In this document: piece after piece, positions 1-62,000 of the stretch | How the letters are laid out: each line of letters opens with the position of its first letter | How positions within the stretch are numbered: position 1 is the first letter of the stretch | From: Octopus vulgaris | Taxonomy: Eukaryota | Direction: 5' to 3' | DNA length: 64,000 nt | Assembly: GCA_951406725.2 (NCBI GenBank) | Contig: OX597833.1 | Span: 55,552,001-55,616,000 of the forward strand | Made by a program: the position numbers

Positions 1-3000
1 CCCAGTGTATACGATGATTGGCAATGTGGTCTTTGTTCTCAAGTTGGTGGTGGTGGTGGTGTTGATGCCGTTGAGATCCTTCAAGCGCGGTCATTTTTAG
101 GTTTTCCTCATTATGGATATTGAAGACAAGTAACAGACGACGTGTTTTCCACGATTCAGTCAATATTCGGAACAAATTGGCCCTGCTTGGAGCGTTTTTC
201 TGATTTTCAACTTCACAGTCTGCATTAGTTTTTTCAGAATTTCCCATTCTGTGATATAATCTTTCTTCAGCTGTTTTGAAGCCAAATTTCCTCCGTCCCA
301 AATATTGACAGTTAATCAAGTTTTAATATCTATTGTTTTTGAAATAATGGAAATTAATATTTTGCTTTGATTTTAAAAAGCTATCTTAAATGAACTATTC
401 CATCATTTCACCTTCTGTTTCTTTTTATTTGTGTTTTTTCATTATTCAATCACACTTTCTTGCATCCACAACACAGATTCAATTCTTAGGGAAAGCCATC
501 TAATCTCACTTTATTTTATTAAATTTGCCACAAGGGCAGTACATAGAGTAAGGTAGCTTGCGGGCTGGACACGGACATTAATGAGATGAATTCCTTATTA
601 ACCTATAAAGGTTTTACACAGAGGGGACATTCAAAGTACAAACTCGCTTCTTACATACAGAGTAAAAAACCGGATGGATTTACATATATTGTGTATGAGG
701 GTTTAAAATATACATATGAACGATGATCGGATGAGTTTTGGGTCCGGGTTAGTGAGTTAACCCGCCGGCTGGTTATCCCTTTTTGGTAATTTTTTTCCTT
801 CCTTTTATGCTCCGACCGACCGTGCAAGCACAGCCTCGTGCGTTCTCATCTTTCTTACTACTGTCGTCCATCTTTTTCCAAACGCTCTTTGCGGCAGGCT
901 CCTCCTCTCCAGACGGATCTTGCTGGACAGATGGGCAGCGAAGTAATTATTCACCAGCCCACGTCCGGAGAGGAACTGACCTGTCGCAATCCCTTTTGCT
1001 CGCGTCTTCCATACCACATCTTTCAGTATGGTTACTACGCAGAGAAAGGCTACCTTTTTTTCTTTGGTGAAAGATGAAGGTGACATTAATGAGATGAATG
1101 ATAACGATACATCTAATCTCGTTTTCTTTATTTCCTATAAAAAGGATACATAGAGGGAACAAACAAGGACAAACAAGGGACATATAGAGGTCAGACGCAC
1201 TCGTTACACAAAATTAAAGCGAATGGGTTTAACTTGGCAGAAGCGTTAGCACGCCGGGCGAAATGCTTTGCAGTATTTCGTCTGCCGTTACGTTCTGAGT
1301 TCAAATTCCGCCGAAGTCGACTTTGCCTTTCATCCTTTCGGGGTCGATAAATTAAGCACCAGTTACGCACTGGGGTCGATGTAATCGACTTAATACCTAT
1401 GTCTGTCCTTGTTTGTCCCCGCTATGTTTAGCCTCTTGTGGGTAATAAAGAAATAGATATGAAAGTTAAAAATATAAATGATCATTTTATAACAGTATTT
1501 TTTCCGGGTTAGTGACCTAACCCGCCGGTTGTTTTCCTTCTGGTAATTATTTCCAGGAACCCAACCTAGACCCCCATATCTACGGCGTTCGCCGCTGGAA
1601 TAAGGAGTGGTTGGAGATCACGTGGTCGTTAGCCTTGAATCGCCAGGCCTGGTCGGCGTTTGTGAGAGATGCAGCATTGAGGATGAATGAAGCCAGCTCA
1701 ACCCACCCCGGGTGAATGCCGTAAGAAGAAGAAGGAGAAGAAGAACTGTTCACATTGCCGAGGTCGACTTTATTTTTCATCCTTTCGGGGTCGATTAAAT
1801 AAGTACCAGTTACGCATTGGGATCGATATAATCGACTTAATCCGTTTGTCTGTCCTTGTTTGTCCCCTCTGTGTTTAGCCCCTTGTGGGTAGTAAAGAAA
1901 TAAGTACTTCGTCTGTTACTACGTTCTGAGTTCAAATTCCGCCGAGGTCGACTTTGCTTTTCATCCTGTCGGGGTCGATTAAATCAGTACCAGTTATGCA
2001 CTGGGATCGATATAATCGACTTAATCCCTTTGTCTGTCCTTGTTCGTCCCCTCTGTGTTTAGCCCCTTGTGGGTAGTAAAGAAATAGGTATTTTGTCTGT
2101 CTTACGTTCTGAGTTCAAATAGTTTGACGAATTATTAGCAACTTGTTATTGGCATTGCGCTGTCTCTGCAGTCTGGTAGCCTGAGTGCAAAATATGTATG
2201 GGCCAACAATTAACTTTTCGTAGTTATGCTTTGGTTGACATTGGCATCAATCGAACTCACTTTGACAAAGAAGCCGTCGATCGTCTGTGAGCCTTTTGAT
2301 CTTCAAGAAGCGCTTCTCTTTCCGTCTTTATTCTCTTCATACAAAATACAAAAAGAGTGTGGGGGTATCGATGAGGCTCAACGATAAGGCGGGGAGCTGG
2401 CAGAAATGTTAACACGCCGGGCAAAATGCTTAGCAGTATTTCGTCTGCCGTTACGTTCTGAGTTCAAATTCCGCCGAGGTCGACTTCGCCTTTCATCCTT
2501 TTGGGGTCAATAAATTAAGTACCTATTTTTTTACTACCCACAAGGGGCTAAAAACAGAGGGGACGAACAAGGACAGACAAACGGATTAAATCGATTATAT
2601 CGACCCCAGTGCGTAACTGGTACTTAATTTATCGACCCCTGAAAGTATGAAAGGCAAAGTCGACCTCGGCGGAATTTGAACTCAGAACGTAACGGCGGAC
2701 AAAATACGGCTACGCATTTCGCCCGGCGTGCTAACGATTCTGCCAGCTCACCACCTTAATTAAGTACCAGTTACGCACTGGGGTCGATGTAATCGACTTA
2801 ATACCTACGTCTGTCCTTGTTTGTCCCCTCTGTGTTTAGCCCCTTGTGGGTAATAAAGAAATAGGTATTTCGTCTGTCGTTACGTTGTGAGTTCAAATTC
2901 CACAGAGGTCGACTTTGCCTTTCATCCTTTCGGGGGTCGATAAATTAAGTACTAGTTACGCACTGGGGTCGATGTAATCGACTTAATCCGTTTGCCTGTC

Positions 3001-59000: not shown

Positions 59001-62000
59001 TGCAATATAATCATATGAAAAGATTCGTTCAAAACCTAGTAATTCCAGCTTTTCGGTGATGTGAAGATTTGTCTCGAAGTTCTTATCGATGCAGACTTTG
59101 ACCAGTTACTTCAGAATAGTATACACCGCTACATCTGCTCAGTTAATGAGACAATTACAGTTGACATTTTGCTGTACGACTCCAAAGCTCTGATAGATTT
59201 ATTATGACAACTACCATCCATTTCTTTTTTTCTTTGTTCAAGGATTTTTAAGAGGATGTAATTTTCGTAAATTTCCAATGCTACTACAGTTCTAGATGTC
59301 TTGCAAGCAACTTGCACATGCAAGTGCTACCAGTTAAAAGCTCCGTATACCGGAAGTAAGCAAGTGTGTTGGAACCGCATCAGGGTTTGCCCGCAAGAAA
59401 TTGTATTTGACAAAAGAATGAAACCTGAACTATTTCATTGTTCTTGTTCAAATCGTTTTTCAAAAATCCAAAACTAAATTAGCTTTTTTTTTTGTCTCTC
59501 AGATAATAAAGTAGACAGGAAAAAATTAGTTAACAGTACTTCTGAAGGAGATTTTTCTGTCACCAGGCATCATATCAACAAGAGTGATGATTTCATCAGA
59601 AATAATTGATTCCGTAGAGACTTATAGCTTCAAGAATATTTTAAGTATTTGTAATTTGCTACGAACATAGAATGGGTCCTAGTCGAAACTTCGGCCGTCG
59701 CTGGACCCCCAAACTTATTCCAAAGAAGAATACAGAGATACGGCCGGACAAAAAGGATCTAGATATCATCACCTCAAATATCCGAACTGTCTGCACACTA
59801 CCAGTTACTTAAACACTATTGCTAACTCGATTTTCTGTATCATTTTCTCGTTTTTGAAACCATGATCGGTAGACTCAACTAGATCTCACGTCCCTTGTAT
59901 CTCGTGTGATTTATTTAATCTGTTGTCTGTTAGTCTTACATCTTCGGTTTACAATAAGAATAAATAATAGTAACCTTGTGTGTACCGAGGTCTATGATGA
60001 CTTCTGCATTCTTTAACTGTCTATACTCAATCATTAGAGTTTTATTTTCGATGTAGTTCAACTTTCAATATATATTTCTTAAATATTGAAGAACAAACAA
60101 CTAAAATGCAACTAAATATTTTAAATACCCTGGCTACATTGCCATGTGCAAATCAGTCAGCAATGTCAATTTTTTTTTCTTGACTCGTAATTTGTTAACC
60201 CTGTTGCCATTTTATACTGGGAGCTTGGATCTTTTCGGTTTGAACGGCAGTTTTTTCTAGCGGTGTCGTATGAAATTGTCACCCATAATTATGGCCCTAG
60301 AATCGGTCTATTACATTTCAATCTCTTTTAGGGTTAGGGGTGGGGGAAGGGTATCTTTTTTTCTTCACAAATGAAAATAAACCCAATCTGTTTCTTAAAC
60401 GAGGGACATATTCATACGGCACCGAATGCTTTTTAACTCAATAGACGTCAGTGATTGGTTGAAATTGAAGAATAAACAACAAATATCTTACAAACTATAG
60501 AATTTTCTCAATAAAGCCAAGAGAAAAAGATGTTTTTTAAACACATTCTACCAGTATATGAAGCTTAAAATTTTTTAGTTACCTAGAAATTGTTAAAAAC
60601 TGCCATTCAAACCGAAAAGATCCGGGAGCTTAACTTAAAATTTCATAACTTTTTGAATAAAGTATGTTTGAAATCTTTTCGTTAGTTGTTACAGCGCAAT
60701 CTTTATCGCCACGTTGGTTGCTAGATGCAGCTATCTCCCTCAAACTAAATTTTTTTCCTTTATCAAAACTTTCACCTGCCATTACCTCAAGTATGAAATA
60801 TGAAACCGGACCAAAATATCAAGGAATTTTTTTTTTCTAAGATCACATAAAATCAAATAGAATTTTCCTATAAAAACACTTTACATAACATGCCATCATG
60901 CTTCAGGACCAGTTACTGCAACAGCCTGGGTTTCAAGGGCCCACAGCTTTTTAATATTCTCCCAAAGAGTCTGAGGAACTTGCACAAGGTAGATGTAGGG
61001 TTTTTTTTAATCAAAGCCGGACCTCTTCCAGTCGAGAGTCCCAGATGAACCTACCTCACGGCAAGAGGTGCAAATGAGGGTAGCTATATCAAACTCCATT
61101 CTTCACCAAGTGCCACATATTGGAGGAGGCTCTTCGTAATAACAGTGTAGCAAAACGGCGGTGCATCGGCATGGCCGCAGCTCTGAGCTGAAACTGTTTC
61201 AATCCTCTGACTGCGGCCATGCTGGGGCACAGCCTGGAAGGGTGTTTTAGTCGAACAAATCGACCCTAGGTCATATGCTTTTAAAGTCCGGTACTTATTC
61301 TATCGGTCTCTCTACCGAACCGCTAAGTTACGGGAATGCAAACACACCAATACCGGTTGTCAAGTGGTAATGGGAGTTAAACAGACACACATACATATAT
61401 ATTTCTTTACTGCCCGCAAGAGGCTAAACATAGAGTGGACAAACAAGGACAGACAAAGGGATTAAGTCGATTGCTGGTACTTTATTTATCGACCCCGAAA
61501 GGATGAAAGGCAAAGTCGACCTCGGTGGAATTTGAACTCAGAACGTAACGACAGTCGAAATACCGCTAAGCATTTCGCCCGGCGCGCTAACGTTTCTGCC
61601 AGCTCACCACCTTCAGACACATACATATATATGTATACGACAGGCTTCTTTTAGTTTCCGTCTACCAAATCCACTCACAAGGCTTTGGTTTACCCGCGGC
61701 TATGGTAGGAGACACTTTGCCCAAGGTACCCAAAACCATGTAGTCGGGAGGCAAACTTCTTGCCACGCATGCGTTCGTCAGAATCCATTCCGTTTGTTTT
61801 TTTCCAACCACATGAAGATTTGTCAATTCTCTATGGATTGTTTTTCGAATTTCCAACACCGATGTAGTTTTGCATAATGATGACGAATATCGCATTATTA
61901 TTATTTGGGGGGGGGACAAATCCATAATAAACGAGATTGAAGCGTTCTAAGTTATTAATTTTTAGCCAATGAAATGAGTCCGGTGTCCTCGCGAGCGGAA

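What the first reader, a model, noticed from the sequence alone, without database searches (positions are those of the whole stretch)
1..60000. Cluster of at least 11 copies of an unrecognised four-TM protein family with receptor-like design
Seen: seven complete ORFs (6897, 19092, 30053, 37524, 40980, 48709, 57697), one cut by the edge (1-247) and three pseudogenes. They share a polar N-tail with (R/W)PTRRxS and EENxEMTAL, a Q/H-rich linker ending in HW, four hydrophobic helices, D-Y-W..LD..I..NSL in TM2, and a basic KRR loop between TM2 and TM3. Four copies have an N-x-S sequon in loop 1. They are strongly diverged yet mostly open in a region where TEs decay. Established: the positive-inside rule and the sequon imply N-in topology; RRxS is the PKA consensus; single-exon birth-and-death arrays are typical of chemosensory and immune receptor families. 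Inference: a lineage-specific tetraspan receptor or channel family, topologically like MS4A/MARVEL-type proteins. I recognise no actual homology.
Basis: partly seen in the sequence, partly recalled or inferred. Interest (0 to 1): 0.85.

Follow-up and report, generated by a model that had tools for sequence, protein, structure and literature searches.

The report
Orphan four-helix membrane protein gene array
The window holds a real tandem array of eleven copies of a small, fast-evolving four-helix membrane protein family that matches no described family; its function is unknown, and it looks more like a membrane adaptor or channel subunit than a ligand-binding receptor.

Summary
There are 7 complete ORFs at the stated coordinates, one copy cut by the window edge, and 3 decayed 3' fragments, 11 copies in all. 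The proteins have a disordered polar N-tail and four hydrophobic helices; the AF2 model has pLDDT about 90 in the helices. Charge counts support an N-in topology.

Each of the 8 copies that has a start codon carries its own conserved ~200-bp upstream block with a TATA-like motif. Five or six of 7 copies also share a conserved 3' block. The array is an old palindrome centred near 39 kb.

No match was found in Pfam, PDB sequences, or Foldseek against PDB and BFVD. HMMER against 1.84 billion representatives found only 21 related clusters. Two are named, both hypothetical proteins of Argonauta hians.

dN/dS is high: 0.84 overall, about 1.0 in the helices and 0.65 in the tail. Even so, seven ORFs staying open under neutrality has P about 3e-12.

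The outward loops are only about 4 and 2 residues long, so "receptor-like" is weak. No expression data could be checked.

The parts
2..247 (-). Edge copy: open N-terminal part (82 codons) of a family member, cut by the window start
   Evidence: Profile positions 1-81, E 1.3e-16. nhmmer E 6.9e-34. Translation.
326..486 (-). Conserved upstream (promoter-like) block of the edge copy
   Evidence: Both motifs are present.
6897..7511 (-). Complete ORF, 204 aa (g6897)
7633..9399 (-). Non-LTR retrotransposon fragment lying between g6897 and its upstream block
   Evidence: Homology to g57697 stops at about -122 and resumes at about -1890. The ORF at 7892-8911 has a zf-RVT domain.
9400..9567 (-). Displaced upstream block of g6897
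17863..17989 (-). Pseudogene fragment (TM2-end to TM4 region)
   Evidence: nhmmer E 1.8e-10. Stops and frameshift. Mirror partner of 59822-59975 at 77% identity.
19092..19907 (-). Complete ORF, 271 aa (g19092), with an internally duplicated N-tail carrying two P-T-R-R-x-S motifs
   Evidence: Extra nhmmer matches of the tail at 19732-19798 and 19803-19906.
19997..20299 (-). Upstream block of g19092
   Evidence: 77.5% identical to that of g57697 over 311 nt. Motifs.
30053..30652 (-). Complete ORF, 199 aa (g30053). It ends early in TM4, as does its closest outside relative P0001
30718..30943 (-). Upstream block of g30053
37524..38120 (-). Complete ORF, 198 aa (g37524)
38266..38431 (-). Upstream block of g37524
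40665..40894 (+). Upstream block of g40980
40980..41627 (+). Complete ORF, 215 aa (g40980), head-to-head with g37524
46854..47083 (+). Displaced upstream block of g48709
47084..48690 (+). Inserted element between the upstream block and g48709. It holds two ORFs (47153-47797 and 47875-48543), the second with a zinc-knuckle-like C-x2-C-x4-H-x4-C
   Evidence: Break in homology. ORFs. No Pfam match. Calling it a retroelement gag is my inference.
48709..49923 (+). Complete ORF, 404 aa (g48709). The family core is at 49333-49923. The N-tail is lengthened by in-frame 42-bp tandem repeats
   Evidence: Repeats at 49045-49333, period 42, about 6 copies.
54500..54708 (+). Pseudogene fragment (TM2-end to C-terminus)
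   Evidence: nhmmer E 7.3e-14. Stops and frameshifts.
57304..57598 (+). Upstream block of g57697
57697..58311 (+). Complete ORF, 204 aa (g57697). This is the sequence modelled by AF2
59822..59975 (+). Pseudogene fragment (TM2-end to TM4)
   Evidence: nhmmer E 7.6e-12. Stops.

Best explanation
The window holds a clade-restricted multigene family of small integral membrane proteins, about 200 aa each. The only named relatives are from an octopod.

Shown:
- Each protein is a compact four-helix bundle. The N-terminus, the basic TM2-TM3 loop and the C-terminus lie on the cytosolic side, and there is almost no exposed outer surface.
- A disordered cytosolic N-tail of 70 to more than 270 residues carries two conserved short motifs: P-x-R-R-x-S and an acidic E-x-x-E-M/L. 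Between the start and these motifs lies a hypervariable stretch that has repeatedly grown by in-frame tandem repeats.
- Each gene is a single ORF with its own conserved TATA-type upstream block and a short conserved 3' block.
- The array grew by segmental duplication, including one old inverted duplication. It has lost copies to truncation and has taken up transposon insertions.
- Residue identity changes almost as fast as silent sites, yet the reading frames, the promoter blocks, the tail motifs and a set of polar residues inside the helices are kept.

Inferred:
- The proteins act inside the membrane and through their tail. The most likely role is a phosphorylation-regulated adaptor or auxiliary or conducting subunit that pairs with other membrane proteins or with itself, in the manner of small tetraspan adaptors.
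- They are unlikely to be stand-alone ligand-binding receptors.
- The fast evolution together with kept frames points to diversifying or very permissive selection, as seen in immune, reproductive or chemosensory gene arrays.
For: Copies: 7 complete, 1 edge-cut and 3 fragments.

Fold: the AF2 model built on the 28-sequence alignment has pLDDT 75.7 overall and about 90 in the helix blocks, with helices at 76-112, 117-145, 152-176 and 179-203.

Topology: charge counts (K/R against D/E) over 28 sequences are 66/13 in loop 2, 25/14 in loop 1 and 5/22 in loop 3.

Conserved positions over 28 sequences:
- Tail: P39 22/28, R42 20/28, S44 17/28, E56 19/28.
- In-helix polar residues: position 106 is H 17, Y 6, D 4; Y120 22; D126 19 plus N 4; S133 19 plus T 6; C158 17; C161 23; N165 14; S187 17.

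Conservation is periodic along the helices. The summed helical moment gives p 0.02 for the 7 window copies and p 0.003 for the 21 outside sequences.

Gene unit:
- The upstream block is present in 8 of 8 copies that have a start codon.
- One motif has 9 matches against 0.76 expected; 8 lie upstream of genes and 1 is a chance site at 23530.
- The TATA-like motif has 8 matches against 0.01 expected and lies 127-158 bp before the ATG in the 6 copies without an insertion.
- The 3' block is conserved for about 190 bp in 5-6 of 7 copies.
- In the 19092/57697 pair the promoter is 76-89% identical and the CDS 64-70%.

Selection: neutral simulation gives P(open) of 0.007-0.066 per gene and a joint P of 3e-12.

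Outside relatives pair with single window genes: g19092 with P0002 (70% identity, support 100/100), g30053 with P0001 (63%), g37524 with P0003 (50%).

Array history: mirrored collinear matches run from 17.9-31.5 kb to 46.5-60.0 kb. The two mirror pairs have equal dS, 0.505 and 0.514.
Against: - dN/dS is high. GY+F3X4 gives 0.84 overall (LRT against 1: p 0.05), 1.03 in the helix core (p 0.79) and 0.65 in the tail (p 0.012). Pairwise NG86 values are 0.38-1.10. Radical changes are barely rarer than conservative ones. These values are what neutral drift would also give.
- No transcript evidence could be obtained.
- No protein encoded by the window appeared in the protein collections searched.
- Two of the 7 intact ORFs (g6897, g48709) have a 1.6-1.8 kb element between promoter block and ATG and may be silent.
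- RRxS is missing in 3 of 8 copies.
- The functional reading as adaptor or subunit rests on architecture alone.
Confidence: 0.6

Rival explanations
1. The family is a stand-alone chemosensory or immune receptor family. The four-helix proteins would themselves detect external ligands.
For: - Tandem birth-and-death array with 11 copies, 3 of them decayed.
- Fast protein evolution, omega 0.84-1.0, with frames kept open.
- Polar residues inside the helices could form an intramembrane pocket.
- From recall, no call: mammalian MS4A four-helix proteins have been proposed as chemosensors.
Against: - The outward loops are about 4 and 2 residues in the confident model.
- No ectodomain, no signal peptide-like start and no cysteine-rich loop.
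- The best conserved parts are cytosolic tail motifs, and omega is lower in the tail than in the helices.
- No match to any receptor family. GPR_Gpa2_C scores 19.5 bits against a cut-off of 21, in 2 of 7 copies.
Confidence: 0.15
2. The family forms a homo-oligomeric ion, proton or metal-conducting channel or carrier. The conserved in-helix His/Asp/Asn/Ser and the C-x-x-C in TM3 would form the path, gated by the tail.
For: - Conserved polar residues within the helices: H/Y/D106, D126, S133, N165, S187, C158 and C161.
- His- and Gln-rich linker before TM1, with a run of five His in the edge copy.
- Tail phospho-motif.
Against: - No match to any channel or transporter family.
- The polar residues could equally be a structural hydrogen-bond network.
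- Several are replaced in window copies, for example N165 in g6897.
- The oligomer test could not be run.
Confidence: 0.12
3. The copies are non-functional, neutrally decaying duplicates. The ORFs are open by luck or died only recently.
For: - Omega about 1 in the helix core.
- CDS identity (64-70%) is no higher than alignable downstream DNA (62-73% at +1400 to +2000) in pair 19092/57697.
- Three clear pseudogene fragments.
- TE insertions next to two promoters.
- No window protein in the public protein sets searched.
Against: - Joint P about 3e-12 for seven open frames under neutral substitution alone.
- No indel in the helix core among 7 copies, whereas the upstream alignment is full of indels.
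- Promoter blocks are more conserved than the CDS.
- Tail omega is 0.65, p 0.012.
- Conservation is helically periodic.
- Closer full-length relatives exist elsewhere.
Confidence: 0.07
4. The ORF is cargo of a transposon or an endogenous virus and has spread by mobilisation.
For: - The region is rich in repeats: 21% of bases lie in stretches with 10 or more copies.
- LINE fragments are present.
- The genes are single ORFs.
Against: - Gene copies are 65-77% identical in DNA, against 84-96% for the dispersed repeats.
- Homology between young pairs runs collinearly for more than 2 kb into unique flanks and fades gradually, with no shared sharp ends, TIRs or LTRs seen.
- Each copy has a TATA-type promoter block of its own.
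- No transposase, RT or capsid gene sits at a fixed distance.
- BFVD fold search: best E 0.019, and none of the 500 counted matches reached E 0.001.
Confidence: 0.03

Closest known systems
MS4A / CD20 family (Pfam CD20, PF04103), including the Fc-epsilon-RI beta adaptor
   Same: - Size about 200 aa, four helices, both ends cytosolic, mostly short loops.
- Genes in tandem arrays.
- Cytosolic tails with signalling motifs.
- One copy here (g48709) has 8 Y-x-x-[LIV] motifs at 14-residue spacing.

These likenesses to MS4A are from recall, not from a call.
   Different: - No Pfam match in 28 family members at E up to 0.1, or in 7 at E up to 1.
- No CD20 chain among the 50 listed Foldseek PDB matches; best E 0.11.
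- The signalling tail here is N-terminal and long.
- The conserved motifs P-x-R-R-x-S and E-x-x-E-M are not MS4A features as far as I recall.
MARVEL-domain proteins (CMTM, synaptophysin, occludin; PF01284)
   Same: Four-helix membrane core with cytosolic ends; often act as membrane scaffolds or adaptors (recalled).
   Different: No Pfam match and no PDB sequence or fold match.
Uncharacterised 'hypothetical proteins' of Argonauta hians (P0013, P0020) and 19 unnamed clusters
   Same: True homologues with the same tail motifs and the same four helices. Profile E-values run from 1.7e-73 to 1.1e-05.
   Different: Only 23-25% identical to g57697. They have no described function, so they name the family's range and not its role.
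Clade-specific gene arrays of coleoid cephalopods with no similarity to known proteins
   Same: [quoted passage not shown]
   Different: That statement concerns a squid. The list is in a supplementary table that I could not see, so I cannot say whether this family is among them.

Membership tests
MS4A / CD20 (PF04103) | Significant match to the family profile | tested here: not met
   No CD20 hit in 7 window proteins at E up to 1, or in 28 family members at E up to 0.1.
MS4A / CD20 (PF04103) | Fold match to solved CD20 structures | tested here: not met
   Foldseek against PDB with the confident model: none of the 500 counted matches reached E 0.001, best E 0.11, and no CD20 entry among the 50 listed.
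MS4A / CD20 (PF04103) | Four helices with N- and C-termini cytosolic | tested here: met
   Four helices. Charge counts favour loop 2 on the inside. This is shared by many unrelated families.
Tetraspanin (PF00335) | Large second outer loop with a C-C-G motif and disulfides | tested here: not met
   The loop between helices 3 and 4 is 2 residues long. No Pfam match.
Claudin / PMP22 (PF00822) | First outer loop of about 50 residues with a W-GLW-C-C signature | tested here: not met
   Loop 1 is 4 residues in the model and 8 by my wider limits. No Pfam match. The signature itself is recalled.
MARVEL (PF01284) | Significant match to the family profile | tested here: not met
   No hit.
Fungal Git3/Gpr1-type GPCR C-terminal region (PF11970) | Score above the curated cut-off, and seven helices | tested here: not met
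   19.5 and 15 bits against a cut-off of 21, in 2 of 7 window proteins. The proteins have only four helices.
VKOR (four-helix bundle with C-x-x-C) | Profile or fold match, with C-x-x-C at the outer end of the last helix | tested here: not met
   - No Pfam hit.
- VKOR chains appeared only with the poor first model, at E 0.8.
- They are absent from the 50 listed matches of the good model.
- The C-x-x-C here is at the inner end of helix 3.
This orphan family itself | P-x-R-R-x-S and acidic E-x-x-E-M/L motifs in the tail, followed by four helices with the conserved Y, D, S/T, C-x-x-C, N and S positions | tested here: met
   Alignment of 28 sequences. All 7 complete window ORFs score E 1e-72 or better against the core profile.

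The most novel reading that the evidence does not exclude
This would be a cephalopod-restricted family of phosphorylation-gated tetraspan signalling subunits under diversifying selection. It would be an independent invention of the MS4A logic: four helices in the membrane, a signalling tail in the cytosol, and genes in a birth-and-death array. Recognition would take place inside the membrane or through partner receptors. Tails would be rewired by tandem-repeat growth, for example the eight Y-x-x-[LIV] motifs of g48709. All copies would be driven by one shared, invariant promoter element.
Probability: 0.15. Interest if true: 0.75.

Novelty: new variant of a known kind. Interest (0 to 1): 0.5.

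Why it matters
If the genes are expressed, this is an undescribed membrane protein family with no Pfam model, no solved relative and a very narrow range: 21 clusters among 1.84 billion representatives. Its selection pattern is unusual. Frames, promoters and tail motifs are kept while residues turn over at nearly the silent rate.

Such clade-specific arrays are suspected to underlie cephalopod novelties, but few have been dissected. This one comes with a clear gene unit, a dated inverted duplication that supplies natural replicate pairs, and an invariant promoter element. Regulation and function are therefore directly testable.

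Tried and rejected
- **Pfam.** On 7 and then 28 members there was no consistent family. The GPR_Gpa2_C hit is below its cut-off and was rejected. The other hits occur in one member each.
- **PDB sequence profile.** Best E 0.2, to a potassium channel segment. Rejected.
- **Foldseek against PDB, first model** (pLDDT 57). Best E 0.077, GPCR pieces and VKOR. 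A poor model makes these matches meaningless.
- **Foldseek against PDB, good model.** Best E 0.11, generic helix bundles and GPCR pieces.
- **Foldseek against BFVD.** Best E 0.019.
- **ESM Atlas.** Best scores 0.81 and 0.75, both below the lead threshold.
- **Word-indexed protein search.**
  - The 7-sequence profile gave 1 hit.
  - The 28-sequence profile gave 2.
  - The helix part of g57697 gave none of 62 candidates.
- **Complex prediction** (homodimer of the helix core) gave no verdict.
- **Extra promoter motif at 23530-23542.** The alignment shows no wider similarity, so it is a chance site.
- **tRNA scan.** None found.
- **Hydrophobic against polar class test.** The contrast was weak: radical/dS 0.64 against conservative/dS 0.77 in the core. 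It does not show strong selection for hydrophobicity.
- **Global alignment of the 30053/48709 pair.** It was spoiled by the inserted element and was not used.
- **Literature.** Searches found no paper on this family. I saw search listings only, except for passages of PMC9068888.

Full report
**1. Observation**

They align over about 200 residues at 29-44% identity to the first sequence.

A protein profile of the shared part was run on all six-frame pieces. It recovers the seven (E 2e-72 to 3e-96) and an open N-terminal piece at 2-247(-) that runs off the window (E 1.3e-16).

A nucleotide profile adds three short pieces: 54500-54708(+), 59822-59975(+) and 17863-17989(-), with E 7e-14 to 2e-10. 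All three cover only the region from the end of helix 2 onward and are broken by stops and frameshifts.

- R-R-x-S in 5 of 8 tails.
- H-W in 4 of the 7 complete copies and in the edge copy.
- An N-x-S in loop 1 in 4 of 7.

**2. The protein**

AF2 on only the seven window sequences gave a poor model (pLDDT 57). With 21 outside relatives added, it gave pLDDT 75.7 overall and about 90 in the helix blocks. The helices are at 76-112, 117-145, 152-176 and 179-203 in g57697 numbering, and residues 1-75 are disordered.

The two loops on one side are 4 and 2 residues long. The loop on the other side is basic.

| Region (28 sequences) | K/R | D/E |
|---|---|---|
| Loop 1 | 25 | 14 |
| Loop 2 | 66 | 13 |
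| Loop 3 | 5 | 22 |

By the positive-inside rule (established knowledge) this supports N-in/C-in.

The loop-1 sequon lies inside the 4-residue hairpin. By the recalled minimum-distance rule for glycosylation it is probably not used.

Positions kept across the 28 sequences:
- In the tail: P39 (22/28), R42 (20/28), S44 (17/28), E56 (19/28).
- In the helices:
  - Position 106: H 17, Y 6, D 4.
  - Y120: 22.
  - D126: 19, plus N 4.
  - S133: 19, plus T 6.
  - C158: 17.
  - C161: 23.
  - N165: 14.
  - S187: 17.

Conservation is periodic along the helices. The summed moment at 95-110 degrees gives p 0.02 for the 7 window copies and p 0.003 for the 21 outside sequences. A packed bundle would show this pattern.

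The stretch between the conserved start and the tail motifs is hypervariable and has grown by repeats:
- g48709 carries in-frame 42-bp repeats, giving eight Y-x-x-[LIV] motifs.
- g19092 has a duplicated tail.
- Outside members carry other repeats.

**3. The gene unit**

Comparison of the flanks shows a block of about 200 bp shared by all 8 copies that have a start codon. It lies about -310 to -90 from the ATG.

| Motif in the upstream block | Matches in window | Expected by chance | Notes |
|---|---|---|---|
| 13-nt pattern containing GAATTGAAAC | 9 | 0.76 | 8 upstream of genes on the gene's strand; the ninth, at 23530, is a chance site |
| TATA-like motif | 8 | 0.01 | 127-158 bp before the ATG in the six copies without an insertion |

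In g6897 and g48709 the block is displaced by 1.6-1.8 kb. In g6897 the insert is a LINE fragment with a zf-RVT ORF. In g48709 it is an element with two ORFs and no Pfam match.

About 190 bp after the stop is also conserved in 5-6 of 7 copies.

I read the upstream block as promoter plus 5' UTR. No transcript data were available to test this.

**4. The array**

Six copies on the minus strand (edge, 6897, fragment 17.9k, 19092, 30053, 37524) face five on the plus strand (40980, 48709, fragment 54.5k, 57697, fragment 59.8k).

Low-copy inverted matches form one collinear mirror series, with coordinate sums of 77.5-79.9k:
- 17865 with 59956
- 19165 with 58301
- 19997 with 57598
- 26151 with 51919
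- 29993 with 49944
- 30718 with 47082
- 31299 with 46697
- 37552 with 41557

The pairs 19092/57697 and 30053/48709 have equal dS, 0.505 and 0.514. This fits one old inverted duplication centred near 39 kb. The inner pair 37524/40980 is more diverged (dS 1.18), so whether it belongs to the same event is open.

In a tree with the 21 outside sequences, each minus-arm gene pairs with an outside protein to the exclusion of its mirror copy:
- g19092 with P0002, 70% identity, support 100/100.
- g30053 with P0001, 63%.
- g37524 with P0003, 50%.

The window group needs 6 changes on that tree. If those proteins come from other species, which I could not establish, the duplication predates the species split.

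**5. Not transposon cargo**

Gene copies are 65-77% identical in DNA, while the dispersed repeats around them are 84-96% identical. Homology of young pairs runs on into unique flanks for more than 2 kb and fades. I saw no common sharp ends. Each copy has its own promoter block.

**6. Selection**

Pairwise NG86 dN/dS is 0.38-1.10, with dS 0.5-1.2.

| Partition | omega, GY+F3X4 | LRT against omega = 1 | omega, MGK |
|---|---|---|---|
| All 185 codons | 0.84 | p 0.05 | 0.82 |
| Tail, 56 codons | 0.65 | p 0.012 | 0.74 |
| Helix core, 129 codons | 1.03 | p 0.79 | 0.96 |

Radical changes are only slightly rarer than conservative ones. In the 19092/57697 pair the CDS (64-70% identity) is no better conserved than alignable downstream DNA, while the promoter block is better conserved at 76-89%. 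Taken alone, these numbers look nearly neutral.

Evidence against neutrality:
- Random substitution along the estimated terminal branches gives 2.6-4.6 expected stops per gene. P(open) is 0.007-0.066 per gene and 3e-12 jointly.
- The helix core has no indel among the seven copies.
- The tail is under measurable constraint.
- Conservation is helically periodic.

I conclude that frame, promoter, tail motifs and a few in-helix positions are selected, while most residues are free or driven to change. With seven sequences I could not separate relaxed from diversifying selection.

**7. Homology**

- Pfam: nothing consistent.
- PDB sequences: best E 0.2.
- Foldseek against PDB with the good model: best E 0.11, none at or below 0.001.
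- BFVD: best E 0.019.
- ESM Atlas: 0.81 and 0.75.
- HMMER against 1.84 billion representatives: 21 clusters at E up to 1e-3, 16 at 1e-10 and 7 at 1e-30, all 174-366 aa with the same design.
- Only two are named, both 'hypothetical protein' of Argonauta hians.

A cephalopod origin of the window is therefore plausible but not shown.

None of the window's own proteins turned up in the word-indexed collection.

Five literature searches found nothing on such a family. Passages of PMC9068888 mention unnamed clade-specific arrays listed in a supplement that I could not see.

**8. Mechanism**

Shown: a four-helix membrane core with almost no outer surface, a long disordered cytosolic tail with a basophilic-kinase type site and an acidic motif, and conserved polar residues inside the helices.

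R-R-x-S matches the PKA consensus. That is established knowledge and was not tested here.

Inferred: the proteins work within the membrane and through the tail, as adaptor, auxiliary or conducting subunits. A stand-alone ligand receptor is unlikely given the loops. This is a judgement from architecture, and I put it at modest confidence.

**9. Left unchecked**

- Transcription.
- Sources of 19 of the 21 outside clusters (unavailable).
- AlphaFold DB fold search, which was not available.
- Supplementary tables of the cephalopod genome papers.

Noticed in passing
window 31965-32149 (+): A 185-nt piece matching eukaryotic LSU rRNA (model positions 2139-2324, 104.5 bits, E 7e-24) sits alone in the array, inside the most G+C-rich part of the window (0.466 in 32-36 kb). 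It could be an rDNA fragment carried by a retroelement or a stray insertion.
   Followed up: no
window, e.g. 5373-5779, 12902-13320, 28748-29163, 42533-42954, 60227-60623: A dispersed element of about 410 bp is present in at least 17 copies at 84-93% identity in both orientations. It looks SINE-like, but ARAGORN found no tRNA-like part.
   Followed up: partly
window 52247-53358 and many other sites (1757-2120, 6253-6623, 38599-38933, 44937-45305, 53613-54498): A 184-bp unit occurs both as a six-copy tandem array at 97% match and as scattered one- to two-copy pieces. Together with the 410-bp element, it puts 21% of the window in stretches with 10 or more copies.
   Followed up: partly
window 49045-49333 (+), inside g48709: In-frame 42-bp tandem repeats (about 6 copies, 84-85% match) lengthen the cytosolic tail and create eight Y-x-x-[LIV] motifs at 14-residue spacing. 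This spacing is like that of tyrosine-based signalling motifs (my recall, not tested). The opposite strand is also open here (48812-49288), as is usual for repeats.
   Followed up: partly
window 19732-19906 (-), inside g19092: The N-tail is internally duplicated, giving two P-T-R-R-x-S-L motifs and a short tandem T-D-V-S-K-P repeat.
   Followed up: partly
window 39410-39753: A 29-bp tandem repeat (about 12 copies, 78% match) lies at the centre of the inverted structure, between the head-to-head genes g37524 and g40980.
   Followed up: no
window 32881-33265, 33588-33957 and 41827-42212: Three copies of a segment of about 385 bp are 90-96% identical, far younger than the gene copies. One lies just downstream of g40980. 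Its identity is unknown.
   Followed up: no
window 50102-50470: A 19-bp tandem repeat (19 copies, 87% match) starts about 180 bp after the stop of g48709.
   Followed up: no
window 55392-57011 (-), 7892-8911 (-), 13831-14955 (+): Non-LTR retrotransposon pieces. The first carries RVT_1 (E 1.4e-27), with the next ORF in another frame. The other two carry zf-RVT (E 8e-11 and 7e-17).
   Followed up: partly
upstream blocks, e.g. window 57440-57452, 40717-40729, 30875-30887: The invariant element contains A-A-T-T-G-A-A-A, which fits the A-A-N-N-G-A-A-A core that I recall for interferon-regulatory-factor sites. The core is short enough to arise by chance. What is not chance is its invariance in 8 of 8 copies.
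   Followed up: no
window 2-247 (-), edge copy: The linker before helix 1 holds a run of five histidines (H-Q-H-H-H-H-H-Q), and the tail serine of R-R-x-S is replaced by leucine.
   Followed up: no
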